Translations under genes and position numbers: made by a program
Assembly (NCBI GenBank): GCA_019449455.1
Contig: JAGRPO010000088.1
Location: forward strand, 459-64,458
Origin: Betaproteobacteria bacterium
GTDB taxonomy: Bacteria; Pseudomonadota; Gammaproteobacteria; Burkholderiales; Usitatibacteraceae
DNA length: 64,000 nt
Direction: 5' to 3'
Notes under the pieces: model-generated
Databases searched by the model: none
Seen by the model: the letters and a program-made list of their open reading frames with translations, nothing else
What the model was told of the DNA's origin: nothing
Shown: piece by piece, positions 18,263-32,238 of the stretch
How positions within the stretch are numbered: the stretch's first letter is position 1
Layout of the letters: each line of letters opens with the position of its first letter

Positions 18263-18263
18263 T

Positions 18264-18608: not shown

Positions 18609-18723
18609 GTTGGATACACCTTCCATGGGCCAAATGGTAACGGATCGGGTTACTTCGTCAACCCCCCCCATCCGGGTTACCCCGGGAGGATTGGGCGAGG
18701 CCGGGCCCGGGGGGCGGGATGGG

Positions 18724-19857
18724 TCAGCCCAGCGGGTCCTCGCGGAACTTTTCCTGGATGCGCTCGATCTCGTCGCGCTGCCCGGCGAGGCCCTTCACGC
18801 ATTCCGCGTCGAGGTGCGTGCCCGCGAGCTGGTCGAGGATGGCGAAGGCCACGTCGTTCGTGTACGCGTCCTTGTAGGGGCGCTTGCTGGTGAGGGCGTC
18901 GAAGACGTCCGCCACCGCGACGATCCGCGCCTCCAGCGGGATGGCGTCGCCCGCGAGGCCGTAGGGATAGCCCCGGCCGTCGACGCGCTCGTGGTGCAGG
19001 AGGGCGATGTTCCTCACCACCTCGATGTCCGCGAGGGAGCCCAGCCCGAAATTGGTCAGCAGCTCGTCGATGATCGCCTGCCCGCGATTGGCGTGCGTGC
19101 GCATCACGTCCATCTCCTTGTCGGTGAGGCTGTCCGGCTTGAGCAGGATCGCGTCGGGGATGCCGATCTTCCCGATGTCGTGCAGCGGGGCGTAGGCCTG
19201 GATGCGCTCGATGTACTCGTCGTCGAGGTCGTGCCGCTCGGCGAGCGCGCGGGCGACGAGGCGGGCGTAGCGCGACATCCGGTCGAGATGGCTGCCCGTC
19301 TCGGTATCGCGGGCGTTCACGATGTGCCGCGCGCTCTCGAGGGCGGCCGAGAGGGTCCGCACCGCGGCGAGCTCCTGGACCACCAGCAGCGACACCAGGT
19401 GGCCGAAGATGTCGAGCTGCGCGAGGGCGGTCTCGGTGAACACGTCGGGCTCGCGGGAATTGAAGAACACGAACCCCAGGAACGCGCCGTTCGAGAAGAT
19501 GGGCATCGTGTAGCTCGCCGCGAAGCCGGAGCGGCCCAGGCGCCTCGAATGCTCGCTCTCCGCGCCCTCGAACGTGAGCATGTGCTGGATGACGCGCGGG
19601 TGCTTCTCCTCCAGGAGCCTGGCGAGCGACGGCACTTCGCCGAGCGGCGCCTGGTAATGGGGCAGGGGATCGTCGCCGTCGCTCGAGTGGACGAAGGTCT
19701 TGAGGAACGTGGTCTTCGGGTCGTAGATCGCGACCGCGATGCGGGCCACGAACGGCATGAAGGTGCGCACCGCCCAGTGGATCTCGCGGATCCGGGCGCG
19801 CAGCGACCCTTCGCCGTTGAGTGCCTGCAGCGCGTCGTGGTGTTCCGTTTCGGTCAT
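18724..19857 (-). CDS. GAF-like sensor / HD-GYP domain c-di-GMP phosphodiesterase
   Basis: ATG at 19857 overlaps the upstream stop (ATGA). Motifs: YAPLHDIGKIGIP (HD) and HHERVDGRGYPYGL (GYP). Confidence 0.88.
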   Translation of the reverse strand: MTETEHHDALQALNGEGSLRARIREIHWAVRTFMPFVARIAVAIYDPKTTFLKTFVHSSDGDDPLPHYQAPLGEVPSLARLLEEKHPRVIQHMLTFEGAESEHSRRLGRSGFAASYTMPIFSNGAFLGFVFFNSREPDVFTETALAQLDIFGHLVSLLVVQELAAVRTLSAALESARHIVNARDTETGSHLDRMSRYARLVARALAERHDLDDEYIERIQAYAPLHDIGKIGIPDAILLKPDSLTDKEMDVMRTHANRGQAIIDELLTNFGLGSLADIEVVRNIALLHHERVDGRGYPYGLAGDAIPLEARIVAVADVFDALTSKRPYKDAYTNDVAFAILDQLAGTHLDAECVKGLAGQRDEIERIQEKFREDPLG

Positions 19858-20507
19858 GTCGCCTTCGCGCGCGGCGGCGAGGGGGTGGGCTTGATCCCGA
19901 GCTTGTCGGCCGCCCGCACGAGGTCGGCCACCGATCGCACCGACATCTTCTCCATGATGCGGCCGCGGTGCACCTTGACCGTCTTTTCGGTGGTGCCGAT
20001 CTCGGCGGCGATCACCTTGTTGCGCTTGCCGGCGATCACGTGGGTGAGCACCTCGCGTTCGCGCGGCGTGAGCTCGCCGTATCGAAGCGCGATCTCGCGC
20101 TTGGTGACCTTGTCGCTGGAGGCGGCGCGCGCGCGCGCGATGGCGCGCGTGAGAGCGGCGAGCAGTGTGGCGGCCTCGACGGGCTTGAGCAGGAAGTCGA
20201 CGGCGCCGCGCTTCATCGAGGTGACCGCTCCCGGCACGTCGCCGTGCCCGGTGAGGAAGACCACGGCGATCTCCGGCCGCAGGGCCTGCAGGCGGGCATG
20301 CAGCTCGAGGCCGCTCTTGCCCGGGAGCCCGATGTCGAGCAGCGCGCACGACGGCCCCGTGATGCCCGGCAGGAACTCGAGGAACTCCTCCGCGGTGGCG
20401 AAGGCCTGCGGGTCGGCGCCCTCGGCGCGCAGCAGGCGCGTGATCGACGTGCGCACCGACGGGTCGTCGTCGATGATGAACAGGCTCACGCCCTCGGCGG
20501 CGATCAT
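19854..20507 (-). CDS. FixJ/LuxR-type response regulator
   Basis: ORF 19854..20507. REC domain (LFIIDDDPS...ALLDIGLPG...K) plus LuxR HTH (LTPREREVLTHVIAGKRNKVIAAEIGTTEKTVKVHR). ATGA overlap with the kinase gene. Confidence 0.92.
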   Translation of the reverse strand: MIAAEGVSLFIIDDDPSVRTSITRLLRAEGADPQAFATAEEFLEFLPGITGPSCALLDIGLPGKSGLELHARLQALRPEIAVVFLTGHGDVPGAVTSMKRGAVDFLLKPVEAATLLAALTRAIARARAASSDKVTKREIALRYGELTPREREVLTHVIAGKRNKVIAAEIGTTEKTVKVHRGRIMEKMSVRSVADLVRAADKLGIKPTPSPPRAKAT

Positions 20508-21673
20508 TTGGGGTCTTCTCCCGGCAGGTGGATGGTGAAGGTGAGGCCGCGGCCGGCATTGCGCTCCAGCTCGAGCCGCCCGCCGTGAGCTTCCACCAGC
20601 GAGCGCGTGACGAGGAGCCCCAGGCCGGTGCCGCGTGCCTTGGTCGTGTGGAATGTCCGCGTCATGCGGGCGAGGACTTCGTTGTCGGCGCCCGGGCCGC
20701 TGTCGGTCACGCGCACGCGCACGCCCCCGTCCTCGGGCTCGACCGCGACCACGAGCGCGCGCTCGACGCCGGCGGGGTTGCCTTCCATCGCCTCGATGGC
20801 GTTCACCACGAGGTTCAGGAGCGCCTGGTAGAGCTGGACGGGATCGGCCATCACGCGGCCCAGCGTCTTGCGCGCCAGGAGCTGCGTCCTGACGCCGGCG
20901 TGACGCAGGTGCGTGCGCGTGAAGTCGAGGACCTCGGAGGCGATGCGGGCCGCGTCCACGGCCTCCGCGGCCGCCGGCTGCTTGCGCACGAGGCGGTGCG
21001 CGCGAAGGATGATCTCGCCGGCGCGCCGCGCGTCGCCCGCGATCGCCTCCAGGGCTTCGCGGACCTCGGCCGCGTTGCCCGAGTCGAGAAAACGCAGCGC
21101 GGCCTCGGCGTTGGCGGTGATGGCCGCGAGCGGCTGGTTCACCTCGTGGGCCAGGGAGGCGCCGAGGGCCGCCACCGTGCGCACCCGCGAGGCATGGGCG
21201 ACCGTGTCCTGGAGGTCGTGCTCGCGCTCGCGGGTGAGGTGCAGCTCGGTCACGTCGGACTGCGTGCCCACGTGGTGCGTGACCTTTCCCGTCGCGTCCC
21301 GGATGGGCGCGATGCGCAGGAAGTTCCAGAACGGCGTGCCGTCCTTGCGGTAGTTGAGGATCTCGCCCTGGAAGACCTTTCCCTGCTGCAGCGCGATGGC
21401 CATCTGCTTGACGGTCTCGGGGTCGGTCCCGGGGCCTTGCACCATGCGGCAGTTGGTGCCCAGGATCTCGTCGGCGGTGTAGCCCACCAGCCGCTCGAAC
21501 GACGGGCTCACGTAGACGATGGGCGCGTCCGGCGTCGAGGCGTCCGAGATGACGATGCCGTCGTCGGCCACGTCGAGCGCGGCGGCCTTGAGCCAGGTGG
21601 CGACCTCGGGAGGGAGCGCCTTTGCCGCGACCCGGGAGGCGCGCTTCGGCACGGTCGGCTTGCGGGCGGCCAT
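20504..21673 (-). CDS. LOV-domain sensor histidine kinase (FixL-like transmitter)
   Basis: ORF 20504..21673. LOV core DGIVISDASTPDAPIVYVSPSFERLVGYTADEILGTNCRMVQGPGTDPETV...GEILNYRKDGTPFWNFLRIAPIRD...GTQSDVTE. H-box LAHEVNQPLAAI. C-terminal HATPase_c (GTGLGL). Confidence 0.88.
   Translation of the reverse strand: MAARKPTVPKRASRVAAKALPPEVATWLKAAALDVADDGIVISDASTPDAPIVYVSPSFERLVGYTADEILGTNCRMVQGPGTDPETVKQMAIALQQGKVFQGEILNYRKDGTPFWNFLRIAPIRDATGKVTHHVGTQSDVTELHLTREREHDLQDTVAHASRVRTVAALGASLAHEVNQPLAAITANAEAALRFLDSGNAAEVREALEAIAGDARRAGEIILRAHRLVRKQPAAAEAVDAARIASEVLDFTRTHLRHAGVRTQLLARKTLGRVMADPVQLYQALLNLVVNAIEAMEGNPAGVERALVVAVEPEDGGVRVRVTDSGPGADNEVLARMTRTFHTTKARGTGLGLLVTRSLVEAHGGRLELERNAGRGLTFTIHLPGEDPK
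21254..21574 (-). other. LOV (light-oxygen-voltage) PAS subdomain of the kinase; adduct-forming Cys codon at 21449-21451
   Basis: GTNCRMVQG corresponds to the canonical GxNCRFLQG. The reverse complement of 21441-21460 reads GGC ACC AAC TGC CGC ATG GT. Confidence 0.8.
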
Positions 21674-21684: not shown

Positions 21685-22398
21685 CTAGCCGGTGTACGTG
21701 CGCAGGCGCTCGATGTCGGGCACCGACACCGAACGGCCTTCCATCACGATGAGGCCGGCGTCGGCCAGCTCGTGGAGGATGCGCGAGAAGTACTCCGGCG
21801 TGAGGTTCAGCCGCGAGGCCACGATCATCTTGTTGGCGGGAAGCGTCACGCTCGCCGAGCGGGCGGAGCCGTCGGAAAGCGTGTCGTCGCGCAGCAGGTA
21901 GCCGATCACGCGCTCCAGGCCCGAGCGCAGCGAATACGCCTCCACGTCACGGATGAGCTGGTGAAGCTTCCTCGACATGCCGGCCAGCAGCCGGCGGGCG
22001 AAGCGCGGGTCGCGCTCGATCTCGTCGAGGACCATGCTCTTCGAGACGTGCAGCAGCAGCGAATCCTTCAGCGTCTGCGCGGAGATGACGTAGGGCATGT
22101 CCATGAAGAGGATCGCCTCCCCGAACGAGATGCCGGGGCCCATGATCTCGATCACCTTCTCCGAGCCCTGCGGCGAGGTGACGAAGAGCTTCACCTGCCC
22201 GTAGAGGACGACGTGGAATCCCTCGCAGCGGTCGCCGCGCGAGAAGAGAGTCTCGCCCTTCATCGCGTAGATGCGGCGCGTGCCGCCCGCTATGCGCGCG
22301 ATCTCCTCGGGCGTCAGGTCGCTGAACAGCGGGAGGTTCACCAGGAACTGCTCGACCGGGATGTCCGGCCCGCGCGCGCGCGGCTCTCCGGTTTGCAT
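21685..22398 (-). CDS. Crp/Fnr family regulator, Dnr/NnrR-like (no Fe-S Cys motif)
   Basis: ORF 21685..22398. LPLFSDLTPEEIARIAGG...GISFGEAILF... is the effector barrel. The HTH is IVASRLNLTPEYFSRILHEL. It lies 11 nt upstream of the LOV kinase start and 51 nt downstream of the respiratory operon. Confidence 0.88.
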   Translation of the reverse strand: MQTGEPRARGPDIPVEQFLVNLPLFSDLTPEEIARIAGGTRRIYAMKGETLFSRGDRCEGFHVVLYGQVKLFVTSPQGSEKVIEIMGPGISFGEAILFMDMPYVISAQTLKDSLLLHVSKSMVLDEIERDPRFARRLLAGMSRKLHQLIRDVEAYSLRSGLERVIGYLLRDDTLSDGSARSASVTLPANKMIVASRLNLTPEYFSRILHELADAGLIVMEGRSVSVPDIERLRTYTG

Positions 22399-22449
22399 GA
22401 CGGTAGGGGCACTGGGCGTTGTGAGGGCCCATGATACCCCGGCCGGCGC

Positions 22450-23265
22450 TCACGACCCGACGGAAACGCGCCCGGGAAGGCCCGGGTCGGGCCGGGGGGC
22501 GGCCCGCGAGGAGAGCGCGGCGGCGATGGCCGCGCACAGCGCCGCCGAGGAAAGCAGGTTGTGCAGCCAGCGCGCCAGCGGCCAGCCGGAAGCGGCGACG
22601 GCGGCGAGGACCTGCGCCGCGATGAGCGCGACCGCCAGGCGGGCGGCGAGGCGCGCGCCCGGCGGCGGGGAGGCGCTGAACGCCAGCAGAGCCCATCCGG
22701 CGAGGCTCGCCCACGCGAGCGCGCGGTGGACGAGGGCGAGCGACGAGGGATCGGACGGCGGCGCGGTGGCGAGCACGCCGCCCGTCACCGTGGCGAGGGC
22801 GACGAGCGCGCTTGCCGCGACGAAGGGCGTCGCGAGGCGGCCGCGGGGGGCAAGCGCGGCGACCGCGAGGCCGGCCGACAAGGCGAGGAGGGTGAGGCCT
22901 CCGAGCAGGTTGGCGAGCATCACCGCGGGAGGCGCGGCGCCCGCCGAGCGCCGGCCGATGACCGCGAGCACCGCCACCAGCACGAGGACGGCGGCGGCCG
23001 CCACGCGGCGGCCGGGGCGCGCGGGGGCCTTCCACGCGACGGCGGCGATGAGGAGCGCGAGGACGGTCACGCCCATCGCCGCGACGCGATGGGCGAGCCG
23101 CACGGCATCGGAGAGCCCGAAACCGGTGCAGCCGCCGGCGGGGCAGGGCGCGGCCGCCAGCCGCAGCCAGGCGCTGGAGGCGACGACGACGAAGACGAGG
23201 GCGGCGCACGCCGCGGCCGACGCGACGAGCGCGCGGTCGTCCCGCGCGAGGCCGGGCAGGCTCAC
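22450..23265 (-). CDS. Polytopic membrane protein, weakly COX15/CtaA-like
   Basis: GTG at 23265 overlaps the upstream stop (GTGA). CPAGGC in the first loop, and AHRVAAMG / VHRALAWA helix motifs that recall the HR motifs of haem A synthase halves. Confidence 0.5.
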   Translation of the reverse strand: MSLPGLARDDRALVASAAACAALVFVVVASSAWLRLAAAPCPAGGCTGFGLSDAVRLAHRVAAMGVTVLALLIAAVAWKAPARPGRRVAAAAVLVLVAVLAVIGRRSAGAAPPAVMLANLLGGLTLLALSAGLAVAALAPRGRLATPFVAASALVALATVTGGVLATAPPSDPSSLALVHRALAWASLAGWALLAFSASPPPGARLAARLAVALIAAQVLAAVAASGWPLARWLHNLLSSAALCAAIAAALSSRAAPRPDPGLPGRVSVGS

Positions 23266-24683
23266 CGGACCCCGGCCGGGGCCCGCTGCCGGAGCGCGCC
23301 GATCACGACGATCACGAACGCGAGGCCGCCCAGGATGGCGACGAGGCCGCCCAGGCCCATCAGCGCCATGCCGGCCACCTCCTGGGACGTGCGCAGGACC
23401 TGCGCGGCGCCCGCCACCTTGCGCTCCACGCCGTAGCCGCCGGACCAGACCAGGCCCACGATGTGCGCGAGCTGCCCGCCGCCGTAGAGCCACGGCTGCC
23501 ACGCCGCCAGGCGGGACCGCGGCGCCGCGAAGCCCAGCTGCGGCAGCAGGTGGTAGGCGAGGCCCATGAAGGCGAGCGTCACGCCGACGATGCAGCCGTG
23601 GTAGTGCGCGGGGATCTTCACGTTGGGGCCGCTGATCGCGAACCCGATGAGGCCGCCGGCCGCGAAGAGCCCGATCGAGGCGGCGAGCGCGCCGAATATC
23701 GGGCGGCTGCGCCCGTCGAGCGCCGGCAGCCCGCGCATGGCCCAGAGCAACGCGAGCAGCACGGGCGGGATGGCGAGCCCGCCGCCGAATCGCATGAGCC
23801 ACGTCTGCAGCTTGTGGTGCTCGACCGACGCCACGGGGTGCGCGATGTAGATGGCAGGCGTCACGAGCACCGAGGCGAACGCGATGGTGAAGACGAGCAG
23901 CGTCACGCGCGGCGAGAGCGCCAGGCGCAGGCCCAGCGCCGAGGCGAGCCACAGCCAGCCCCCGAGCATGAGGAGCGTCCACGTGAACTGCAGCACGTGA
24001 CCGCCGCCCCAGAACAGCAGCTCGTAGTAGGCCTTGCGCTCGAGGTGCGGGGAGACGTCGAGGTACGACCAGCCGAACGCGGCCAGCGCGACGGCGGTCG
24101 CGGCCGCCGATCCCACGATGCCCCAGCGCAGCGCGGCCTCCCCGTCGAGGACGGATCCGGAGGACCGTGCCGCCCAGAACGTGCGTGCCACGGCGGCTGC
24201 CACGCCCGCGCCGATCGCGCCGAGCCCGCCGAGGAATACGGCGTTGTCGATGACCGGGATGTAATTGGCGAGCACCGGGACCGCGTGCCCCGCGAGAGGG
24301 GCGACGCACAGGGCGAGTGTCCCGGCCGCGCACAACGCGAGCGATGTCCAGCCCAGGGCGATGGCGCGCGAATCGCAGGCGAGGCTCCAGAGGACGCCGG
24401 CGAAGGCGAGGAACCACACCAGCACCGAGAGGTCGACGTGCGCGACGAGCGCCACCTGGAAGAAGTCCGCGACGGGAAACACCTCCTTCAGTCCGGGCGT
24501 GCGCGCGAGCACCAGCAGCAGCGAGAAGATGCCGGAGCCGACGAGGGCGGCGATGCCGAGCACCAGCCAGCCCGTGGCGAGCCGCGCGGAGGCGTCGCGC
24601 GCCACCGTGATCCCGTAGGCCGTGCCCCGGCCGGAACCCGCGGAGGATGCAGTGGGGAGATGAAGGGAGGGCAGGCTAGCCAT
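23262..24683 (-). CDS. Orphan haem-copper oxidase superfamily catalytic-subunit homologue (473 aa)
   Basis: ORF 23262..24683, 12-TM pattern. All six canonical His are present: LVAHVDL (helix II), LFWGGGHVLQF (helix VI), SVEHHKLQ (helix VII), IPAHYHGCIVG (helix X). There is no Tyr at His+4. The start overlaps the upstream gene by 8 nt. Confidence 0.8.
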   Translation of the reverse strand: MASLPSLHLPTASSAGSGRGTAYGITVARDASARLATGWLVLGIAALVGSGIFSLLLVLARTPGLKEVFPVADFFQVALVAHVDLSVLVWFLAFAGVLWSLACDSRAIALGWTSLALCAAGTLALCVAPLAGHAVPVLANYIPVIDNAVFLGGLGAIGAGVAAAVARTFWAARSSGSVLDGEAALRWGIVGSAAATAVALAAFGWSYLDVSPHLERKAYYELLFWGGGHVLQFTWTLLMLGGWLWLASALGLRLALSPRVTLLVFTIAFASVLVTPAIYIAHPVASVEHHKLQTWLMRFGGGLAIPPVLLALLWAMRGLPALDGRSRPIFGALAASIGLFAAGGLIGFAISGPNVKIPAHYHGCIVGVTLAFMGLAYHLLPQLGFAAPRSRLAAWQPWLYGGGQLAHIVGLVWSGGYGVERKVAGAAQVLRTSQEVAGMALMGLGGLVAILGGLAFVIVVIGALRQRAPAGVR

Positions 24684-26265
24684 GGTGCTTCTCCTGGCGT
24701 TTGGGTGGCAGGGTGTGGCGGGCCGCGCGCGGCCCCAGGCGGGAAAGCTCGGTGCGGAACGTGTCGAGTTCGACGCGCAGCGCGTCGAGATCGGTGAGCC
24801 CGGCGTGCGCGTACCGGACGCGCTCCCGCGGCACGCTCGAGCGCAGGGAGGGCTTGCGCCCGCCGTCCAGGCGGGCCGCGACGAGCGCGTCGCCCACGCG
24901 GAACTCGCAGTCGCCCTCCCGGCATCCCGCGACGAGCACGCCGTCGGCGCCCGCGCGAAGGGCGTATTCGACGAAGGAGGGAGGCACCATCGCGGCGCAC
25001 AGGAACTCGATCGCGGCCGTGGAGTGGCCCTCGAGGGACGCGACGCCGGCGCCCCAGCGGCAGCCGAACACCACGATGCGGGGGCCGCCCTCGAGCGCCG
25101 CCGCGCGCGCCTCGAGCCGCGCGCGCAGCCCGCCGATGGTCGCCGAGGGCATGTCGATGCCCGTGGCGAGCGCCTCGTCGCGGCGGAAAGGCGTCGAGGA
25201 CGGGCAGGCGCCGGTGCAGATGCCGCATCCCGCGCAGAGGTTCGCGTCGACCTGCGCCTGCCGGAGGTGCGGCCGGGCGTCGGTGCGCGGCACCATCACC
25301 ACGGCGTCGTAGGGGCAATCGGCGAAGCAGCGCGCGCAGCCGTTGCAGTTGGCGAGGTTCACGCGGGCCACCGGCGCGCGCGGCACGCGGGTGGCGTAGG
25401 GCAGCGCGGCGAGGCCGGCGAAGAACGCGGCGGTCGCCGCCCACAGGCCCTCGGGGCCGAGCCAGGCCATGGCCGGGTGCGGAAAGAGGTAGAACCAGTC
25501 GAGCGGGATCGTCGCGGGCAGCAGGCCGAGGTCGGCGGCGGGCATGAGCGAGACGGGCTTCGCGAGCGCGAGCGCCGCGAGCATCGCGGCCGTTCCCCAG
25601 GCAAGGGCGCGCGGCGGTTGGGTGCGCGCCGGGCTCACCCGCTGCACGTGGACCCACATCGCCGCGAGCATCGCTAGCGGCAGGCCGATGTGCAGGAAGA
25701 TGAGGAGCGAGAAGAAGCGGTCGTTCACCTGGTCGCCGGCGATGACGTTGCGGGTGAGCGCCCCGTCGAAGAACGGCAGCGCGTCGAGCCATTCGGTGGT
25801 CGCGGTGAGGCTCCATTGCGCGAGCTGGTCCCAGGGGAGCCAGTAGCCGCCGATGCCGGCGGCGAACATCAGGGCGAGCGCGAAGATGCCCGTGAGCCAG
25901 GCGAATCGCCTGAACGCGGCGTAGTGGCGGCGCGAGAGCTCGCGCACGAGATGCAGCGCCGTGACCGCCACGAGGGCGTCGGCGCTGTAGCGGTGCAGGG
26001 CGCGCGCGAACGCTCCCAGCGGCCAGGCGTTCCGGTCCATCGCGGCGAGGCTCTCGCGCGCGCCGGTGGCGCTGGTGTCGAAGCCGACGTAGATCCAGAT
26101 GCCGGAGGCGCAGCAGATCCAGAAGGAGAGGAAGCCGAGGGCGCCCAGGTGCCGCCACGGGTTCAGGCGCTGGCCGAAGGCGCGGTCGAAGAGCGCGTCC
26201 AGCCGCTCGACGATCGGGGCGGCGGGACCCGGCCCGGGAAGCGCGAAGGCGGCGGAAGCGTTCAT
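24676..26265 (-). CDS. Fusion protein: dihaem cytochrome b (bc-type N-domain) + 2x[4Fe-4S] ferredoxin + MvhD/FlpD-like domain
   Basis: ATG at 26265 within ORF 24676..26574. Cyt b His pairs: ALHRY...ALHLV and FLHIGLPL...WVHVQ, plus GYWLPWDQLA. Fe-S motifs CNGCARCFADCP and CAGCGICTGACP. MvhD-like motifs VVFGCRWG...LVAGCREGDCEF. Confidence 0.8.
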   Translation of the reverse strand: MNASAAFALPGPGPAAPIVERLDALFDRAFGQRLNPWRHLGALGFLSFWICCASGIWIYVGFDTSATGARESLAAMDRNAWPLGAFARALHRYSADALVAVTALHLVRELSRRHYAAFRRFAWLTGIFALALMFAAGIGGYWLPWDQLAQWSLTATTEWLDALPFFDGALTRNVIAGDQVNDRFFSLLIFLHIGLPLAMLAAMWVHVQRVSPARTQPPRALAWGTAAMLAALALAKPVSLMPAADLGLLPATIPLDWFYLFPHPAMAWLGPEGLWAATAAFFAGLAALPYATRVPRAPVARVNLANCNGCARCFADCPYDAVVMVPRTDARPHLRQAQVDANLCAGCGICTGACPSSTPFRRDEALATGIDMPSATIGGLRARLEARAAALEGGPRIVVFGCRWGAGVASLEGHSTAAIEFLCAAMVPPSFVEYALRAGADGVLVAGCREGDCEFRVGDALVAARLDGGRKPSLRSSVPRERVRYAHAGLTDLDALRVELDTFRTELSRLGPRAARHTLPPKRQEKHHG

Positions 26266-26294
26266 GGTCGTCCCGGCTCGTTCCTCGGCCGCGG

Positions 26295-26795
26295 CTAGCG
26301 GATGAGGATCCCGCCCTTGCCGGGCTCGAAGTCGATCACCAGCACGCGGCCGGGCTCGAGGCGCACCTGCTCCTCGCGCACGCGGTCGAACGTGCCCGCG
26401 GCATCGTCGGCGAGCGCCACGCGCAGCCGGTGCGTGCCGGCCGCCACGGGGATGCGCCGGTAGGCGACGGAGGCGCCGTCGCGCGAAAAGCCGGCGGGCT
26501 TCGCGACGATGTCGGCGACGGGGGCGCCGTCGAGCTCCACCTTCACGAGCACCGGGGCGCGCTCGCGGGGGCAATCCTCCGCGGCGCGCATGTTGGGGGC
26601 GAGCTTCGCGAGTTCCTCGGGCGTGCGCATGCGGCAGGCGACCTTGCGCTGTCCCGCGTGGTTGAGGGACAGGCGGATCAGCGCGTACCCCGGCGGCAGC
26701 GGCCTGAAGGCCGGCGCGGTCGAGAAGTAGCCGAGGGCGGCCGCGAAGGCGCCGTAGAGGAGGGCCTGGAGAACGTAACGGAAGGCGCGGTTCAC
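26295..26795 (-). CDS. Hypothetical single-TM protein of the operon
   Basis: GTG at 26795 overlaps the upstream stop (GTGA). N-terminal TM YVLQALLYGAFAAALGYF, then a soluble domain of about 130 aa with no motif I recognise. Confidence 0.55.
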   Translation of the reverse strand: MNRAFRYVLQALLYGAFAAALGYFSTAPAFRPLPPGYALIRLSLNHAGQRKVACRMRTPEELAKLAPNMRAAEDCPRERAPVLVKVELDGAPVADIVAKPAGFSRDGASVAYRRIPVAAGTHRLRVALADDAAGTFDRVREEQVRLEPGRVLVIDFEPGKGGILIR

Positions 26796-28729
26796 GGGCG
26801 GCCTCCCAGGCGCACGACGTCGGCGTCCCCGGCGTGGATGCGCGGCGCGAGCTTGAACGCGTCCGAGAAGCAGTCGTCGGGCGCGAGCCCCTGCTTGGCG
26901 AACGCCGGCTGCGCGGCCTCGACCATCTTCACCGAGCCGCACGCGTAGATGCGATGCCCCGCGAGGTCGGGATAGTCGGAGAGGATCGCCTCGTGGACGA
27001 GCCCGGTGCGGCCCTCCCACGCTTCCCCGGGCGCGGGGTCGGAGAGCACGGGCACGAAGCGGAAGTTCGGATGCTCCCTGGCCCAGCGCTCGGGGAGCTC
27101 GCGCAGGTACATGTCGGCGAGCGTGCGCGTGCCCCAGTAGAGCACCATGGGCCGCGTGATCCCGGCGTGGAACGCGTGCTCCACCATGCTCTTCACGGGC
27201 GCGAAGCCGGTCGCCCCCGCGACGAAGATCACGGGCTTGGCGCCGTCCTCGCGCAGGAAGAAGGAGCCCACGGGCCCCTCGAAGCGCACGCGGTCGCCGA
27301 CCTTCATGGCGGTGAAGACGTGCGTGGTGAAGCGGCCGCCCTGGATGGCCCGGATGTGCAGCTCGATGGGGCCTTGCTCGTGCGGGGCGGTGGCGAAGGA
27401 GAAGGCGCGCTTCTGGCCGTCGTCGAGGAGGATGTTGATGTACTGGCCGGCGTAGAACGGTGCCTTCCCGCCGCCCTCCACCTCGAGGCGCACGCGCATC
27501 ACGTCCTTCGCCAGGAGGTCGAGCGAGACGACGCGCGCCTCGTGCACGGCGACCGGGCGGGCCGCCTGCGCCGTGGGCTCGTACTCGATTTCCACGTCGG
27601 AGAGTGGCTTGGCCACGCAGGCGAGGACGCGCCCGGCCTCGCGGTCGGCGGCCGTGAGGGCGCTTTGCTGGTAGGCGCCCAGCGCCACCTCGCCGTGCAG
27701 CACCGTGCACTTGCACACGCCGCAGCCGCCGTTGCGGCAGTCGAAGGCCATGGGCAGGCCGTCCCTCAGGCACGCGTCGAGGAGCGACTCGTCCTCCTTC
27801 ACCGGGATGATGCGGTTGTCCGGATGGGCCAGGACATGGAAGGCGCGCAATTCGCGGCGCCCGAACTTCGGCGGCAGCCACGGCGCCATGACGGCGAGCA
27901 GCGTGAGTCCTCCCACGAGCAGCCACAGGGTGTCGGGCGACCAGCGGTAGAGCAGCGCGTAGGTCGGCATGTAGAACCAGTCGAACTCGATCGCGGCGGC
28001 CATCGTCGCGAGGTCGGCGGGCCCCTGGCTCAGGGCCGGCTTCACGACCGAGAGCACGACCATGGCCGCGCCCAGCGCGGCCATCAGCGGGTTCGGGGGC
28101 AGCGTCTTCGCCTGCGGCACGCGGTGGGTGTGGATCCACAGGAGCGCCAGCACGCCGAGCGGCAGCCCGATGTGGAGGAAGGAGAGCAGCGAGAAGAACC
28201 GGTCGTTCACGCTGTCCGCGACCAGGAAGTTGCGCATGAGCAGCCCGTTGAAGACCGGGAGCGCGTCGAACCACTCGGCGGTGGCCGTGACCGTGAACGC
28301 CGCGAGCTGGTCCCACGGCAGCATGTAGCCGTTGATGCCGGAGGCGTAGACGAGCCACAGCACGAGCACGCCGCTCACCCACGAGAACCAGCGGAACCCG
28401 CGGTGGCGGTCGAAGGCGAAGTGGCGCAGGAGGTGCAGCGCCATCGTGAGCACCATGCCGTCGGAGGCGTAGCGGTGCAGGCTTCGCATGATGCCCCCGG
28501 CCCACTTCTGCCCGTGCGTGAGCCGCTCGACCGACAGGTACGCCTCGGTGACGCTCGTGTCGAAGAAGGCGTAGAGGTAGAGCCCGCTCGCGACCACGAC
28601 CCAGAACAGCCAGTAGCTGATCGCCCCCAGGTGGTAGAGCGGGTTCAGGTGCTCGCCGAAGATCGCGTTGGCGGCCCGCTCGGCGAGAAGGAACAGGCGT
28701 TGGAGCAGTCGCTGCAGGAGCTTGAGCAT
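26792..28729 (-). CDS. Fusion protein: dihaem cytochrome b + plant-type [2Fe-2S] ferredoxin + FAD/NAD(P)H ferredoxin-reductase module
   Basis: ORF 26792..28729. Cyt b: SLHRY...ALHLL, GYMLPWDQLA, FLHIGLPL...WIHTH. [2Fe-2S]: CRNGGCGVCKC...LACVA. FNR module: RAFSFA (RxYS-type FAD site), VAGATGFAP (NAD(P)H site), YACGSVKM. Confidence 0.85.
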   Translation of the reverse strand: MLKLLQRLLQRLFLLAERAANAIFGEHLNPLYHLGAISYWLFWVVVASGLYLYAFFDTSVTEAYLSVERLTHGQKWAGGIMRSLHRYASDGMVLTMALHLLRHFAFDRHRGFRWFSWVSGVLVLWLVYASGINGYMLPWDQLAAFTVTATAEWFDALPVFNGLLMRNFLVADSVNDRFFSLLSFLHIGLPLGVLALLWIHTHRVPQAKTLPPNPLMAALGAAMVVLSVVKPALSQGPADLATMAAAIEFDWFYMPTYALLYRWSPDTLWLLVGGLTLLAVMAPWLPPKFGRRELRAFHVLAHPDNRIIPVKEDESLLDACLRDGLPMAFDCRNGGCGVCKCTVLHGEVALGAYQQSALTAADREAGRVLACVAKPLSDVEIEYEPTAQAARPVAVHEARVVSLDLLAKDVMRVRLEVEGGGKAPFYAGQYINILLDDGQKRAFSFATAPHEQGPIELHIRAIQGGRFTTHVFTAMKVGDRVRFEGPVGSFFLREDGAKPVIFVAGATGFAPVKSMVEHAFHAGITRPMVLYWGTRTLADMYLRELPERWAREHPNFRFVPVLSDPAPGEAWEGRTGLVHEAILSDYPDLAGHRIYACGSVKMVEAAQPAFAKQGLAPDDCFSDAFKLAPRIHAGDADVVRLGGRP

Positions 28730-28738
28730 GGGGGAGGT

Positions 28739-29575
28739 TCAGCCGGCGGCGCGCAGCCGGCGGCGGTGGCGTTGCCATTCGCGCAGCAGGTAGACGAGCG
28801 TGGTGAGGAGGATCGACAGGCCCGCGAGGATCTCGATCACCACGCCGTAGTCCAGGCGGTACCGGCCGGTGCGCGGATCGTAGACGGTGCACAGCAGGCG
28901 AACGCGGTCGACGATGTTGGCGAGGCTCGCCGCGGGCAGGGGCGCGTCGGTGAGGAGCGCCTTCAGCGGGCCCACGAGCATCGACATCTCGAAGTTCTCG
29001 CCGTAGACCTGCGCGGCCACGCGGCCGTTCGCGTCGAGGAGCGTCACCTGCGTGAGGTGGTCGAAGCCGCCGGCGGAGGCGGCGTAGCTGAAGCCCAGCT
29101 CGCGCGTGATCGCCTCCACCACCCCGGCCTCGGGGCTGAGGAAGTGCCAGTCGCGGCGGTCGATGCCCTGCTGGCGGGCGAAGGCGCGCATCGCCTCGGG
29201 CGTGTCGTAGGGGTAGTTGAAGCCGATGGTGGCCAGGGAGTAGCGCCCCGGGCCCAGCGCGCGGTCGGCCTCGGCGACGGCCTTGGCCAGGAAACGCGTG
29301 GTGGTGGGGCAGACCTGCGAGCAGCCGGTGTAGACGAAGCTCACCAGCACCGGCCGGCCGCGAAGCTGCGACAGGCGGAAGGGACTCCCGTCACCGGCCC
29401 GGAAGGCGTGGTCGCCCACCGGGGTGCCGATGGCGCGCTGGCTGCGGTCGAGGGCCGCGTCCGGCTCCAGGGTGGCGCCCTCGGGCGCTGCTCGCGCCTG
29501 CACAGCGCCGAGGACTGCCCCGAAGCAGAGCGCGGCCGCCGTCAGCAGCCAGCGCGGTCGGCATCCGTTGCCCAT
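28739..29575 (-). CDS. SCO1/SenC copper chaperone with an extra C-terminal TM segment
   Basis: ATG at 29575 within ORF 28739..30337. Signal/anchor, then thioredoxin-fold motif FVYTGCSQVCPTT (CxxxC) and a conserved His in GFDHLTQV. Confidence 0.88.
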   Translation of the reverse strand: MGNGCRPRWLLTAAALCFGAVLGAVQARAAPEGATLEPDAALDRSQRAIGTPVGDHAFRAGDGSPFRLSQLRGRPVLVSFVYTGCSQVCPTTTRFLAKAVAEADRALGPGRYSLATIGFNYPYDTPEAMRAFARQQGIDRRDWHFLSPEAGVVEAITRELGFSYAASAGGFDHLTQVTLLDANGRVAAQVYGENFEMSMLVGPLKALLTDAPLPAASLANIVDRVRLLCTVYDPRTGRYRLDYGVVIEILAGLSILLTTLVYLLREWQRHRRRLRAAG

Positions 29576-29580
29576 GCGGG

Positions 29581-30480
29581 CTAGCCTCGCCAGGCCGCGT
29601 CCGCGATCACGCCGATGAGAAGTAGCGAGAGCTGGGCGAGCGAGGCGTGGAAACTGCGCATCGCGGTGGCGCGCGAAGGATCCCTGGCAAGGCGGGCCGC
29701 GGCCCGCAGGAAGAGGAAGCCCCCCGCGATCGCGCCTGCGGCATAGAGCGGACCCAGGCCGAAGGCGAGCGGAAGGAACGAGGAGAAGACGAGGACGACG
29801 GTGCCGGCGAGGACCGCGCGTGCCGCGCGGGCGTCGCCGACGACGACCGGCAGCATCGGCACGCCGGCGGCCCGGTAGTCGTCGTGGTAGGCGATGGCGA
29901 GGCTCCAGAAATGCGGCGGGGTCCACAGGAACAGGACCCACGCGAGCGACGCGGCGACGGGGCCGACCTCGCCCGGCGCGACGCTCGTGGCGCCGGCGAG
30001 CACCGCGAAGCTGCCCGCGAGCCCGCCGATCACGATGTTCATCCAGGTGCGCCGCTTGAGGACGACGGTGTAGACGACGCCGTAGAAGAAGGCGCCCAGG
30101 AACACGAACAGGGCGGCCACCGGGTTCACCGCGACGGCCGTCGCGCAGACGGCGAGCGCCAGCATCAGGCCGATCACGCCCAGCCAGAACGGCCCGTGCG
30201 TGAGCCGGCCGGTGACGAACGCCCGGTGGCGCGTGCGCCCCATGCGCGCGTCGAGGTCGCGCTCGACGTACTGGTTGAACGCGCCGGCCGAAGCGGACGC
30301 GGCGATGACGCAGGCCACCAGCAGGGCGATCTGCCACGCGCCCGCCGCCTGCCGGCCGGGGACCGCGAGGGCTCCCGCGAGCGCGGTGAGCCCGATCGCG
30401 AACCCGATGCGCAGCTTGAACAGGTCGAAGAACAACCTCACCTGGTCGCGCATCGGGCCTGCATGTCCATCTTCGCTCAT
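29581..30480 (-). CDS. ctaB: Protohaem IX farnesyltransferase (haem O synthase)
   Basis: ATG at 30480 within ORF 29581..31944. NQYVERDLDARMGRTRHR (UbiA-type motif) and LFLWTPPHFWSLA. Confidence 0.9.
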   Translation of the reverse strand: MSEDGHAGPMRDQVRLFFDLFKLRIGFAIGLTALAGALAVPGRQAAGAWQIALLVACVIAASASAGAFNQYVERDLDARMGRTRHRAFVTGRLTHGPFWLGVIGLMLALAVCATAVAVNPVAALFVFLGAFFYGVVYTVVLKRRTWMNIVIGGLAGSFAVLAGATSVAPGEVGPVAASLAWVLFLWTPPHFWSLAIAYHDDYRAAGVPMLPVVVGDARAARAVLAGTVVLVFSSFLPLAFGLGPLYAAGAIAGGFLFLRAAARLARDPSRATAMRSFHASLAQLSLLLIGVIADAAWRG

Positions 30481-30506
30481 GGCGGTCTCCCGGTCGGTCG
30501 GTTGGG

Positions 30507-32228
30507 CTACTTGAGCGGCCAGACGGTCGACAGGTACTTCCAGTTCACGAAGTAGTAGAGGATGAACGACGTGAGGAAGATCATCGCCAGCACGAAGGTG
30601 CCCGGCGCCACGAACCCGCCGATGCCGATGGAGCCGTGGCCCGACGGGGCGGCGGCGACCGGTACCGGCGCGGGCGCCATGCCCTGGCGGACCGGGACGT
30701 GCTTGAAGTCCGGCGTCTGGATCTTCTTGCCGAAGAACACGGAGCCCACGGTGATGGCGAGGTACATCCCGCCGCCGATGACCGCGGCGATGCCCGAGAC
30801 CGCCATGATGCCCATCATGAGATAGGCGGTGCCGGGGAACTCGTGCGGCAGGATCGCGCCCGAGAACGCCATGTCCCAGTGCCGGCGCGGCACGCCCAGC
30901 GTCCCGGCGCCCATCATGAACACCGAGAAGGAGCACATGCCGAGGCCGTAGACATAGGGCTGCCACTTCGCCATGCCCGGGAACATGACCTCGCGCCGGA
31001 AGAGCGTCGGGATGAGGAAGTAGGTGAGCGCCATGAACGCGAGCGTGGTGCCCACGACGACCGTCGCGTGGAAGTGGCCGGGCACGTAGATCGTGTTGTG
31101 GATGATGAGGTTCAGCTGCTCCGTGCCCATCATCACGCCCGAGATGCCGCCCAGGAAGCCGAAGCCCACGAGCGAGATGAACATCCCCGAGAAGCTCGGG
31201 TTGCCCCAGGGGGCCTTGCGCAGCCACTCGAAGAAGCCCTTGTTGAAGCCCTTCTCGCGCTGCGCCACCTCGATCGCGCCCGGCACCGTGAGGCCGTGCA
31301 CCATGGAGGCGAGCACCGCGAGGTACATGGCGTAGCTGGTGTTGAAGATCTTCCAGTTGGAGGTGAGGCCGGGGTCGGCGAGCAGGTGGTGGGCGCTCGC
31401 GAGCTGCAGGAAGAGGATGTAGAGGACGAAGGCGGTCCGGCTCACCTTCTCGCTCATCGGCTTCGCGCCGAAGACGATGGCGGCGATCGCGTACCACACC
31501 GACACGTGGGCCGCGACGTTGATCTGCTGCGAGGAGTGCCCGAACGCCCACCAGACGGTGCGGTACATGAGGGAGTCGATGTGCGACACCAGGCCCACGG
31601 ACCAGAGGAAGGTGGGGATCAGGATGATCGCGCCCGCGGCGATGGTGAAGACGGCGATGATCGCGGCGGTGACGGCCCCGAAGGTCACCAGCGGGATCGA
31701 GCCGTTGTAGGTCTTCTCCGCCTTGCCGACGACCAGCGTGCCGAAGAACACGAAGCAGGCGACGAGCGCGCCCACGGCGAAGAGGATGAGCCCGAGGTAG
31801 AAGAGCGGGTGCGCCCCCATCGGCACGTAGGAGGTGAACATCACGCTGGAGTCGCCCTTGAACACGGCGAAGTTGTTCGTGAGCGCGCCGACGATCATGA
31901 GCCAGAAGGCGACCCAGGCCACCTTCGGCGTCGCGAGCCGGCACTTGAGGAGCGTGGAGGCGGCGAAGTAGAGCACCGCGATCTCGAAGAAGATGATCCA
32001 GAAGACGAGCATGTCCAGCCCGTGCGCGGTGAGCGCGAGGTAGAACCAGTCGGGCGGCAGCAGCTTCACGGCGGGCCAGCGCGTGAGCGTGACCAGGAGC
32101 GCGAGGACTCCGCCCACGAGGAGGGAGACCACCCCCGCGACGGCGTTCCAGCGGATGAGCTTCTCGGCCGGCTCGTGGAAGACGAGGCCGGAGGACGGGC
32201 AGGTGCGGAAATTGCGATTGACGGCCAT
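30507..32228 (-). CDS. Haem-copper oxidase subunit I, B-family-like, lacking the cross-link Tyr
   Basis: ORF 30507..32228. TAHGLDMLVFW (helix II His), WWAFGHSSQQINV (CuB His; His+4 is Gln, not Tyr), ASAHHLLADPG (HH), VPGHFHATVVVG (HxH). Confidence 0.9.
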   Translation of the reverse strand: MAVNRNFRTCPSSGLVFHEPAEKLIRWNAVAGVVSLLVGGVLALLVTLTRWPAVKLLPPDWFYLALTAHGLDMLVFWIIFFEIAVLYFAASTLLKCRLATPKVAWVAFWLMIVGALTNNFAVFKGDSSVMFTSYVPMGAHPLFYLGLILFAVGALVACFVFFGTLVVGKAEKTYNGSIPLVTFGAVTAAIIAVFTIAAGAIILIPTFLWSVGLVSHIDSLMYRTVWWAFGHSSQQINVAAHVSVWYAIAAIVFGAKPMSEKVSRTAFVLYILFLQLASAHHLLADPGLTSNWKIFNTSYAMYLAVLASMVHGLTVPGAIEVAQREKGFNKGFFEWLRKAPWGNPSFSGMFISLVGFGFLGGISGVMMGTEQLNLIIHNTIYVPGHFHATVVVGTTLAFMALTYFLIPTLFRREVMFPGMAKWQPYVYGLGMCSFSVFMMGAGTLGVPRRHWDMAFSGAILPHEFPGTAYLMMGIMAVSGIAAVIGGGMYLAITVGSVFFGKKIQTPDFKHVPVRQGMAPAPVPVAAAPSGHGSIGIGGFVAPGTFVLAMIFLTSFILYYFVNWKYLSTVWPLK

Positions 32229-32238
32229 GGCGGTCTCC

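What the first reader, a model, noticed from the sequence alone, without database searches (positions are those of the whole stretch)
18724..21673. Blue-light LOV histidine kinase - FixJ-type regulator - HD-GYP phosphodiesterase operon
The kinase sensor domain is a canonical LOV domain. It carries GTNCRMVQG with the flavin-adduct Cys codon at 21449-21451, plus NYRKDGTPFWN and QSDVTE. It is attached to a FixL-like transmitter. The three genes overlap by ATGA at 20504-20507 and 19854-19857, so they are translationally coupled. The output gene is a GAF-like/HD-GYP enzyme, which predicts a light-to-c-di-GMP-turnover pathway. The module lies 11 nt downstream of a Dnr-like regulator gene and on the same strand as the respiratory operon. 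This hints at light control of, or co-regulation with, that system in a presumably non-phototrophic bacterium.
Basis: partly seen in the sequence, partly recalled or inferred. Interest (0 to 1): 0.6.

Follow-up and report, generated by a model that had tools for sequence, protein, structure and literature searches.

The report
Blue-light LOV kinase beside NO-reductase operon
A soil and sediment betaproteobacterium (Usitatibacteraceae) carries a real blue-light (LOV) sensor kinase with a FixJ-type gene regulator, encoded at the tail of a nitric-oxide-reductase operon; the parts are known kinds, but coupling a light sensor to nitric-oxide respiration genes has not been described.

Summary
Three co-oriented minus-strand genes encode a LOV-HisKA-HATPase kinase (20504-21673), a REC-GerE FixJ-type regulator (19854-20507) and a GAF-HD-GYP enzyme (18724-19857). 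The ATGA overlaps and the Cys codon at 21449-21451 are as stated.

The kinase is a natural counterpart of the engineered photoreceptor YF1. YF1 (PDB 4gcz) is its best full-length sequence and fold match, and the sensor-to-His linker has the same length, 38 residues, in all 109 orthologues. The flavin-contact residues and the adduct Cys are almost invariant in 105 orthologues. The clade differs from the consensus by NCRMVQ and by Ala in place of the second phosphate-binding Arg.

The HD-GYP has every catalytic ligand, but it has no receiver domain. It is missing from 4 of 10 related lineages, and its nearest outside relatives are stand-alone genes. The constant unit is kinase plus FixJ. In 11 of 13 lineages this unit sits behind a Dnr/FixK-like regulator and an eNOR nitric-oxide-reductase operon.

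The most likely logic is a FixL-FixJ-FixK-type transcriptional cascade with light replacing O2, probably with a kinase that is active in the dark. It is a new member of known kinds in a new genomic context. Interest is moderate.

The parts
20504..21673 (-). LOV-HisKA-HATPase sensor histidine kinase, 389 aa, cytoplasmic
   Evidence: Pfam finds PAS_9, HisKA and HATPase_c. phmmer's best hit is YF1 (4gcz), E=2.5e-68 over residues 31-387. The AF2 model has Foldseek top hit 4gcz, E=1.8e-31.
21245..21583 (-). LOV core (residues 31-143). It holds the adduct Cys75 (codon 21449-21451), R76, Q79, N107, N117 and Q138, plus the clade-specific M77, V78 and A92.
   Evidence: Alignments to YtvA, PpSB2 and the Meiothermus LOV (9vf8). 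Conservation in 105 orthologues: C 104/105; R76, Q79, N107, N117 and Q138 105/105; M77 101/105; V78 100/105; A92 96/105.
21146..21250 (-). Predicted J-alpha/coiled-coil linker (D-V-T-E to the H-box), ending at the phospho-accepting His176 (codon 21146-21148)
   Evidence: The model shows a continuous helix over residues 142-198. There is no gap against YF1 in the linker. The Q138->H176 distance is 38 residues in 109/109 orthologues.
19854..20507 (-). FixJ/NarL-type response regulator (REC plus GerE HTH), 217 aa. Acceptor Asp58 (codon 20334-20336), D13/D14, T86 and K108.
   Evidence: Pfam Response_reg E=2e-22 and GerE E=2e-18. NCBIfam FixJ E=4e-53 (180 bits, cutoff 255). The gene follows the kinase in 13/13 lineages.
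18724..19857 (-). GAF-HD-GYP phosphodiesterase of the PmGH type, 377 aa. HD at H226/D227 (19177-19182) and GYP at residues 296-298 (18964-18972).
   Evidence: Pfam HD_5 E=5e-34 and GAF E=1e-5. phmmer to PmGH (4mcw) E=1.4e-36. Foldseek gives full-length 4mcw, E=6e-17. The ligands are conserved in 118 homologues.
21685..22398 (-). Crp/Fnr-family regulator without an N-terminal Cys cluster (Dnr/FixK/FtrB-like). It ends 11 nt upstream of the kinase gene.
   Evidence: Pfam cNMP_binding plus HTH_Crp_2. The best NCBIfam model is FtrB, E=5e-33, below cutoff. It lies upstream of the kinase in 11/13 lineages.
22427..22440 (-). Conserved GG(G/T)TATCATGGG element (TATCAT at 22431-22436) in the 51-nt gap before the crp-like gene. 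It is a candidate activator-dependent internal promoter -10 element.
   Evidence: Alignment of 12 orthologous intergenic regions: 11 carry TATCAT and one (L092) carries TATGAT, while the flanks vary. There is no -35 consensus, and the consensus scan did not call this site.
22450..33002 (-). Upstream eNOR-type nitric-oxide-reductase operon (CuA subunit II, subunit I, haem O synthase, SCO1, two cytochrome b fusion proteins, a copper-site-less HCO paralogue and a CtaA-like protein). This is context, not part of the sensor module.
   Evidence: Pfam finds COX2, COX1, SCO1, Cytochrome_B fusions and a weak COX1. Subunit I has GHSSQQ with no cross-link Tyr, and subunit II has CNEYCGINHHTM.
33083..33096 (.). 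FNR/Dnr-type palindrome TTGAACCCGTTCAA between the eNOR operon and the divergent ctaA gene
   Evidence: It is one of only 2 exact TTGA-N6-TCAA sites in 64 kb, where 0.1 are expected.
18634..18661 (-). Sigma-70-like promoter TTGACG-16-TACCAT in front of the dsrC/tusE gene. It marks the likely 3' limit of the transcription unit.
   Evidence: It is the only consensus promoter hit in 18200-23400.

Best explanation
The locus encodes a cytoplasmic blue-light two-component system.

Proposed mechanism:
- A homodimeric LOV histidine kinase binds a flavin.
- On blue light it forms the Cys75-flavin adduct.
- The change passes through a coiled-coil linker to the DHp/CA transmitter, which switches between kinase and phosphatase activity toward His176 and Asp58 of the co-translated FixJ-type regulator.
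- The output is transcriptional, through the regulator's GerE helix-turn-helix.

Inferences:
- The linker has exactly the length of YF1 and FixL. The kinase is therefore predicted to be active in the dark and to become a phosphatase in the light.
- The system forms a FixL-FixJ-FixK-like cascade in which light replaces O2. Its likely targets are the adjacent Dnr/FixK-like regulator gene, which has a conserved promoter-like element with no -35, and, through that regulator, the eNOR nitric-oxide-reductase and haem-a genes.
- The GAF-HD-GYP is a catalytically competent cyclic-dinucleotide phosphodiesterase of the PmGH type. It is co-expressed with the system in many but not all lineages and is gated by its own unknown GAF ligand. 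Light could affect c-di-GMP only through its expression level.

Shown here: the domain identities, the residue conservation, the linker length and the synteny. Inferred: flavin binding and the photocycle, the sign of the light response, and the target promoters.
For: LOV identity:
- Best PDB sequence hits are YF1, the SB2F1 LOV-FixL chimeras, and then dozens of LOV domains. The fold search gives the same order.
- NCBIfam LOV-type models (YtvA family, blue-light-activated kinase) hit residues 28-162 at about E=1e-37.
- The adduct Cys and the flavin-contact residues R76, Q79, N107, N117 and Q138 are conserved in 104-105 of 105 orthologues. This argues for selection on photochemistry.

Transmitter and linker:
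- The transmitter aligns to FixL without gaps, and the H-box reads LAHEVNQPL.
- The Q-to-His spacing is 38 residues in 109/109 orthologues, the same as in YF1. In YF1, 7n linkers give light-repressed kinase activity (PMC6798134).

Regulator:
- It has REC plus GerE, its best model is FixJ, and all acceptor-site residues are present (and the sequence).
- The kinase-regulator ATGA overlap is present in every locus where both gene ends were read.

Context:
- Synteny with the Crp-family gene and the eNOR operon holds in 11/13 lineages.
- A conserved TATCAT element lies before the crp-like gene, and an FNR-type box lies at the operon head.

HD-GYP:
- It matches PmGH over its full length, with the eight metal ligands, the E-T-G motif, and D183/K225 equivalents.
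Against: - No experiment or spectrum exists for any member of this clade.
- Three flavin-pocket positions deviate from the consensus: M77, V78 and A92, the last replacing the second phosphate-binding Arg. Among 149 diverse LOV representatives the M-V pair was not seen outside this clade. Cofactor affinity or photocycle kinetics could therefore be unusual.
- The sign of the light response is extrapolated from an engineered chimera.
- No FixJ-type binding site was identified.
- The TATCAT element was not called by the promoter scan and could have another role.
- In two lineages (L095/L096 and L097) the kinase-regulator pair occurs without the Crp gene or the eNOR genes. The system is therefore not exclusively tied to eNOR.
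- The RNA data gave only a few short contigs inside the kinase gene, so there is no evidence on operon structure.
- The organism's habitats (sediment, soil, groundwater) are mostly dark.
Confidence: 0.7

Rival explanations
1. The HD-GYP is the dedicated output, so blue light directly controls c-di-GMP hydrolysis through this three-gene module.
For: The three genes are co-oriented with ATGA overlaps in the window. The HD-GYP follows the regulator directly in 5 of 10 lineages. The enzyme looks fully active. In lineages that lack it, other c-di-GMP or sensor genes sometimes sit nearby, such as the GAF-PAS-GGDEF-EAL gene in L085. The window also has a GGDEF gene at 919-2091.
Against: The HD-GYP has no receiver domain; its N-terminus is a GAF fold like that of PmGH. 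It is missing from 4 of 10 lineages and displaced in one. Its ~60%-identical relatives are stand-alone genes elsewhere. The regulator carries its own DNA-binding output domain. HD-GYP enzymes of this kind can also hydrolyse 3'3'-cGAMP (PDB 5z7c hit), so even the substrate is not settled.
Confidence: 0.15
2. The LOV domain acts mainly as a flavin redox or oxygen sensor that reports respiratory or NO stress. This would resemble NifL-type PAS-FAD domains, or the redox-sensitive behaviour reported for some LOV kinases (recalled from my own knowledge, not checked here). Light would be irrelevant or secondary in these mostly dark habitats.
For: The module sits in a respiratory NO-reductase operon next to a Dnr-like regulator. 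The organism is found in sediment, soil and groundwater. The NifL model also hits the domain, at E=1e-36. The altered phosphate-binding site (A92) could change the cofactor or its potential.
Against: The adduct-forming Cys is not needed for redox sensing, yet it is kept in 104/105 orthologues. So is the whole LOV signature, including Q138 and the D-V-T-E exit motif. NifL-type domains lack this motif (PMC8017926).
Confidence: 0.12
3. The sensor domain is a degenerate LOV that no longer binds flavin. It serves only as a PAS dimerisation module, or binds another ligand.
For: It carries three substitutions at consensus positions (F->M, L->V, R->A). The M-V combination was not found in other LOV representatives.
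Against: The substitutions are conservative (M and V) or possibly compensated: a clade-specific basic residue, K/R89, is present in 103/105 orthologues one helical turn before A92 (the compensation is inference). All other flavin contacts are invariant. The domain is the most conserved part of the protein. Degenerate domains usually lose the Cys first.
Confidence: 0.03

Closest known systems
YF1 (engineered YtvA-LOV::FixL kinase, PDB 4gcz) and the SB2F1 chimeras (PDB 8a3u and related entries)
   Same: Both have the LOV-J-alpha coiled coil-DHp-CA architecture. This is the best full-length sequence match (E=2.5e-68) and fold match (E=1.8e-31). The spacing from the LOV Gln to the phospho-His is identical at 38 residues, and both pair with a FixJ-type partner.
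   Different: The kinase here is natural, not engineered. It is about 38% identical to YF1. The LOV motif reads NCRMVQ, with Ala at the second phosphate-binding Arg position. Its light response has not been tested.
FixL-FixJ-FixK(2)-NnrR cascade of rhizobia and the FixLJ-FixK-FtrB cascade of Caulobacter (recalled from established literature, not re-read here)
   Same: Both have a FixL-type transmitter, a FixJ-type regulator, and a Crp/Fnr-family regulator lacking the Cys cluster. In both, the neighbouring or downstream genes encode haem-copper respiratory or NO-reducing enzymes. The FixL, FixJ and FtrB NCBIfam models are among the best hits, though all fall below their equivalog cutoffs.
   Different: The sensor is a LOV flavin domain, not a haem-binding PAS domain, so the input would be light rather than O2. 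The gene order is crp-kinase-regulator in one unit. The target enzyme is eNOR, not cbb3 or cNOR.
Natural bacterial LOV histidine kinases: Brucella LOV-HK (PDB 6ph4), Erythrobacter EL346 (PDB 4r3a), Caulobacter LovK, and the Meiothermus ruber Mrub_1259 LOV kinase (PDB 9vf7)
   Same: All have a Cys-bearing LOV sensor that controls a histidine kinase in a non-phototroph. The LOV domain here is 46-47% identical to the Meiothermus domain.
   Different: In the fold search, EL346 and Brucella LOV-HK rank far below the FixL-based chimeras (E about 1e-17 to 1e-19, against 1e-28 to 1e-31). From my own knowledge, not checked here: most studied natural LOV kinases belong to the HWE/HisKA_2 group and signal to single-domain or PhyR-type regulators. 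This one has a HisKA FixL-type transmitter and a DNA-binding FixJ-type partner.
PmGH, the GAF-HD-GYP c-di-GMP phosphodiesterase of Persephonella marina (PDB 4mcw)
   Same: The two-domain architecture and the length are the same. All eight tri-iron ligands are present, as are the E-T-G subgroup motif, the catalytic D/K pair and the GYP motif.
   Different: Identity is about 26-35%. The GAF ligand is unknown in both. Here the gene is often fused into a light-sensor operon.

Membership tests
LOV photosensor domains | PAS fold with the GXNCRFLQG motif containing the adduct-forming Cys | tested here: met
   The motif is GTNCRMVQG with Cys75. Two positions deviate (F->M, L->V). Variants at these positions occur in other LOV representatives, though rarely.
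LOV photosensor domains | Conserved flavin-contact residues (YtvA R63, Q66, R79, N94, N104, Q123) | tested here: inconclusive
   Five of the six are present and invariant: R76, Q79, N107, N117 and Q138. The R79 equivalent is Ala92 in 96/105 orthologues, with a basic residue at position 89 in 103/105.
LOV photosensor domains | Flavin binding and a reversible blue-light photocycle | not testable with these tools
   This needs purified protein and spectroscopy.
FixL-type (HisKA) sensor histidine kinases | DHp H-box with the phospho-accepting His, plus a CA domain with the N and G boxes | tested here: met
   The H-box reads LAHEVNQPL (H176). HATPase_c scores E=4e-23. The transmitter aligns without gaps to the FixL part of YF1. 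The NCBIfam FixL equivalog model scores 172 bits, below its 850-bit cutoff, as expected because the haem-PAS part is absent.
FixL (oxygen sensor) proper | Haem-binding PAS domain | tested here: not met
   The only sensor domain is a LOV domain, and no second PAS domain is present.
FixJ/NarL-type response regulators | Receiver domain with the acidic pocket, acceptor Asp, Thr and Lys, plus a C-terminal GerE/LuxR HTH | tested here: met
   D13/D14, D58, T86 and K108 are present. Response_reg scores E=2e-22 and GerE E=2e-18. The FixJ equivalog scores 180 bits against a cutoff of 255, so this is a family member rather than a FixJ orthologue.
HD-GYP phosphodiesterases (PmGH GAF-HD-GYP family) | HD motif, HHExxDGxGYP motif and the eight metal ligands of PmGH | tested here: met
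   E186, H190, H226, D227, H255, H288, H289 and D317 are present, along with D184/K230 and G296-Y297-P298. All are invariant or nearly so in 24-118 homologues.
HD-GYP phosphodiesterases (PmGH GAF-HD-GYP family) | N-terminal GAF fold joined to the catalytic domain by a long helix | tested here: met
   The AF2 model has a beta-sheet domain over residues 37-134 followed by a helix over 142-181. The Foldseek top hit is full-length 4mcw, followed by phytochrome GAF domains. The Pfam GAF hit is weak.
RpfG-type (REC-HD-GYP) response regulators | Receiver domain fused to HD-GYP, allowing direct phosphorelay control | tested here: not met
   No Response_reg hit was found in the HD-GYP protein.

The most novel reading that the evidence does not exclude
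A natural kinase of the YF1 type, active in the dark, uses blue light as a cue for surface or depth. Possibly it integrates light with flavin redox state. Through a FixJ -> Dnr/FixK-like cascade it gates expression of an eNOR nitric-oxide reductase and its photosensitive haem-a biogenesis. If so, aerobic denitrification and N2O output by abundant soil and sediment Usitatibacteraceae would be light-regulated.
Probability: 0.3. Interest if true: 0.65.

Novelty: new member of a known kind. Interest (0 to 1): 0.42.

Why it matters
- LOV histidine kinases, FixJ-type regulators and GAF-HD-GYP enzymes are each well known, so the parts are ordinary.
- The new element is the conserved placement of a light sensor behind a Dnr-like regulator at the end of an eNOR nitric-oxide-reductase operon, in an uncultured but widespread soil, sediment and groundwater lineage. 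This gives a concrete, testable hypothesis that light controls NO reduction, and hence N2O production, in non-phototrophs.
- The kinase is also a natural analogue of the optogenetic tool YF1, with the same linker register but a divergent flavin pocket (NCRMVQ, Ala for the second phosphate Arg). That makes it a useful comparison for LOV photocycle tuning and for linker-register rules derived from engineered proteins.

Tried and rejected
1. The genome-contig scan with the orthologue alignment failed. I replaced it with a metagenome DNA-pattern scan for GTNCRMVQGPGTD (17 loci) and with exact-protein look-ups.
2. The exhaustive representative search with the LOV domain was dominated by multi-PAS giants. 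I used it only to tally motif variants. The C+17 tally for the second Arg is confounded by loop indels, so I did not rely on it.
3. RNA evidence for co-transcription was inconclusive. The RNA runs held only a few 151-189-nt near-identical contigs inside the kinase gene (X23), and the rest came from relatives.
4. The consensus promoter and terminator scan found nothing between 22450 and 18724. The two terminator-like hits are on the opposite strand.
5. I looked for an FNR-type box near the crp-like and kinase genes and found none. The only nearby exact site is at the operon head.
6. I considered a bilin- or haem-binding GAF in the HD-GYP. There is no Cys in the GAF part and no conserved His/Cys pattern, so I did not pursue it.
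I therefore could not check the rest of the genome for phototrophy genes, other photoreceptors or the c-di-GMP inventory.


Full report
**Observation**

The three minus-strand ORFs exist exactly as described:
- the kinase at 20504-21673 (389 aa);
- the regulator at 19854-20507 (217 aa);
- a third gene at 18724-19857 (377 aa).

The minus-strand sequence shows the TGC codon for Cys75 at 21449-21451 inside GTNCRMVQG. It shows both ATGA stop/start overlaps. It also shows an 11-nt gap between the TAG of the upstream Crp-family gene (21685-22398) and the kinase ATG.

Pfam gives these domain hits:
- kinase: PAS_9, HisKA and HATPase_c;
- regulator: Response_reg and GerE;
- third protein: weak GAF and strong HD_5;
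- upstream gene: cNMP_binding and HTH_Crp_2.

**The kinase**

The best solved-structure relative is YF1 (4gcz), the engineered fusion of the B. subtilis YtvA LOV domain to the B. diazoefficiens FixL transmitter. It scores E=2.5e-68 over residues 31-387. The Pseudomonas SB2-LOV::FixL chimeras come next, followed by dozens of isolated LOV domains. These include the Meiothermus ruber kinase LOV domain at E=4e-37.

An AlphaFold model (pLDDT 75) has the expected PAS core. It also has a single uninterrupted helix from residue 142 to 198 that runs into the DHp domain. Foldseek again ranks 4gcz first, at E=1.8e-31.

The alignment to YF1 has no gap between the LOV Gln and the H-box. Gln138 to His176 is 38 residues, the same as Gln123 to His161 in YF1. 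This spacing holds in all 109 orthologues, and in distant LOV kinases where both motifs could be located. In YF1, linkers of 7n residues give light-repressed net kinase activity and 7n+1 linkers invert the response (PMC6798134). By analogy only, this kinase is predicted to be active in the dark and a phosphatase in blue light.

**Is the LOV domain functional?**

In an alignment of 105 orthologues at 68-98% identity, several positions are essentially fixed:
- Cys75 is kept in 104 of 105.
- Arg76, Gln79, Asn107, Asn117 and Gln138 are kept in all 105.

The LOV core is the most conserved part of the protein.

The clade departs from the consensus at three pocket positions:
- Met77 for Phe (101/105);
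- Val78 for Leu (100/105);
- Ala92 for the second FMN-phosphate Arg, YtvA R79 (96/105).

The three LOV sequences displayed residue by residue all have Arg at that last position. A basic residue at position 89, one helical turn earlier, is present in 103/105 orthologues and could compensate. That compensation is inference.

Among 149 diverse representatives from an exhaustive search, NCRFLQ made up 123 of 136 motif instances. Met, Val, Ile or Leu at the Phe position is rare but present, and the M-V pair was not seen outside this clade. I therefore rate LOV membership as met on the fold, motif and Cys criteria. It is inconclusive on the full flavin-contact set and untestable here for the photocycle.

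**The regulator**

It has the acidic pocket (D13/D14), the acceptor Asp58, Thr86 and Lys108, and a GerE-type helix-turn-helix. The FixJ NCBIfam model is its best hit (E=4e-53) but scores below the equivalog cutoff. It is therefore a FixJ-family regulator, not a FixJ orthologue. It follows the kinase in 13 of 13 dereplicated lineages. The ATGA overlap is present wherever both gene ends were read.

**The HD-GYP**

It aligns to PmGH (4mcw) from residue 118 to 372, at E=1.4e-36. Its AlphaFold model (pLDDT 72) matches full-length PmGH best, at E=6e-17 over 373 columns. The N-terminal domain also matches phytochrome GAF domains.

The eight tri-iron ligands defined by mutagenesis in PmGH are E185, H189, H221, D222, H250, H276, H277 and D305 (PMC4159591). 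They correspond here to E186, H190, H226, D227, H255, H288, H289 and D317. The catalytic D184/K230 pair, the E-T-G subgroup motif and G296-Y297-P298 are also present. All are invariant or nearly so in 118 homologues.

However, three findings argue against it being the direct output:
- It has no receiver domain.
- Its ~60%-identical relatives are stand-alone genes in unrelated neighbourhoods.
- Downstream of the regulator it is directly present in 5 of 10 informative lineages, separated by an MscS gene in one (L097), and absent in four (L004/L089, L085, L096 and L101).

A direct light-to-c-di-GMP pathway is therefore not supported. Co-expression is the only visible link. The hit to a cGAMP-specific HD-GYP (5z7c) means that even the substrate is not certain.

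**Context**

The orthologues come from Usitatibacteraceae/Burkholiales metagenome-assembled genomes. Near-identical DNA occurs in freshwater-sediment, soil and groundwater metagenomes.

Upstream on the same strand lies a long respiratory operon:
- CuA subunit II;
- a haem-copper subunit I;
- SCO1;
- two cytochrome b fusion proteins;
- a weak COX1 paralogue;
- a membrane protein with no Pfam hit.

Related loci also carry a UbiA-type haem O synthase in the same operon.

Earlier notes of this scan assign the operon to the eNOR nitric-oxide-reductase family. I checked this partly. Subunit I reads WAFGHSSQQ, with no cross-link Tyr, and subunit II keeps CNEYCGINHHTM. The literature reports that eNOR contains haem a. 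It also reports that eNOR needs microoxic conditions for expression (PMC11214002).

An exact FNR/Dnr-type palindrome, TTGAACCCGTTCAA, sits at 33083-33096 at the operon head. Only 2 such sites occur in 64 kb, against 0.1 expected. The recognition helix of the Crp-family protein carries the E--SR pattern (TPEYFSRIL; read from the sequence).

The Crp-family gene precedes the kinase in 11 of 13 lineages. In L097 the kinase-regulator pair instead lies divergent from the COX15/CtaA haem A synthase gene. That locus has no eNOR or Crp genes.

The 51-nt gap before the crp-like gene contains a TATCAT element (22431-22436). It is present in 11 of 12 loci, and L092 reads TATGAT. The surrounding bases vary and there is no -35 match. 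I read this as a candidate activator-dependent internal promoter for crp-kinase-regulator-(HD-GYP), but the consensus scan did not call it. The only consensus promoter in the region precedes the downstream dsrC/tusE gene.

**Mechanism proposed**

The arrangement has four parts: a FixL-type transmitter, a FixJ-type regulator, a Cys-less Crp/Fnr regulator, and a haem-copper NO-reducing enzyme. It mirrors the logic of the rhizobial FixLJ-FixK2-NnrR cascade (established knowledge, not re-read here), with a LOV domain where FixL has its haem-PAS domain.

The most likely reading is that light, sensed by flavin-Cys adduct formation, sets the phosphorylation state of the FixJ-type regulator. The regulator in turn tunes transcription of the crp-like unit and, directly or through the Crp-family protein, the eNOR and haem-a genes. 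A kinase active in the dark would fit a depth or burial cue for an organism living at oxic-anoxic interfaces. Avoiding photosensitisation by haem intermediates is another possible rationale. Both are speculation.

I weighed and ranked lower three alternatives:
- a direct HD-GYP output;
- a redox-only flavin sensor;
- a degenerate PAS domain.

**Comparison and novelty**

LOV histidine kinases are the commonest bacterial LOV architecture (my own knowledge). GAF-HD-GYP is a named family (bioRxiv 10.1101/2021.11.05.467447). Full-text searches found no paper linking a LOV kinase to denitrification or NOR genes. The 2026 preprint on the eNOR operon does not mention the kinase. A first-reader note from another genome of this scan reports the same LOV motif beside an NO/O2 cluster, in line with my synteny result.

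I classify the finding as a new member of known kinds in a new and conserved genomic context. Interest is moderate.

**Limits**

- One large scan was wasted.
- The RNA evidence was uninformative.
- Nothing about photochemistry, the sign of the response or the target promoters has been measured.

Noticed in passing
window 22427-22440 (-): A GG(G/T)TATCATGGG element sits in the short gap between the CtaA-like gene and the crp-like gene. It is conserved in 11 of 12 orthologous loci (one reads TATGAT) while the neighbouring bases vary. It looks like a -10 element with no -35.
   Followed up: partly
L097 1-7800: One related lineage has the LOV kinase and regulator divergent from a COX15/CtaA haem A synthase gene, followed by MarC. 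It has no eNOR operon or crp gene between them, and an MscS-type channel gene lies between the regulator and the HD-GYP. The sensor pair can therefore persist without eNOR.
   Followed up: partly
L004 11832-14126; L096 2046-5237; L085 18-2915: Where the HD-GYP is missing, other genes converge on the regulator gene: a large hybrid PAS histidine kinase with a receiver (L004 and L096), or a GAF-PAS-GGDEF-EAL protein (L085).
   Followed up: no
window 18300-18626 (-): A DsrC/TusE-family sulfur-relay gene lies about 100 nt downstream of the HD-GYP and has its own consensus-like promoter (TTGACG-16-TACCAT). It recurs near the cluster in related loci, together with rhodanese and PsiF-repeat genes.
   Followed up: no
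window 919-2091 (-): A GGDEF diguanylate-cyclase gene (E=9e-42) with an N-terminal half that has no Pfam hit. It shows that the genome makes c-di-GMP.
   Followed up: no
window 34249-34842 (-): A hemerythrin-domain protein is encoded just beyond the ctaA gene that is divergent from the eNOR operon. It is a possible O2/NO-binding accessory.
   Followed up: no
window 32818-33002 (-): A small ORF of about 60 aa (starting ATGAGTCAGGTACCC...) lies between the FNR-type box and the eNOR subunit II gene. It may be the true first gene of the operon.
   Followed up: no
window 20570-21154: An oligo-dT RNA-seq run labelled as a food-fermentation metagenome (X23) holds three 151-189-nt contigs with 0-1 mismatches to the kinase gene. 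This is an odd source for this organism, and the contigs may be carried-over DNA.
   Followed up: no
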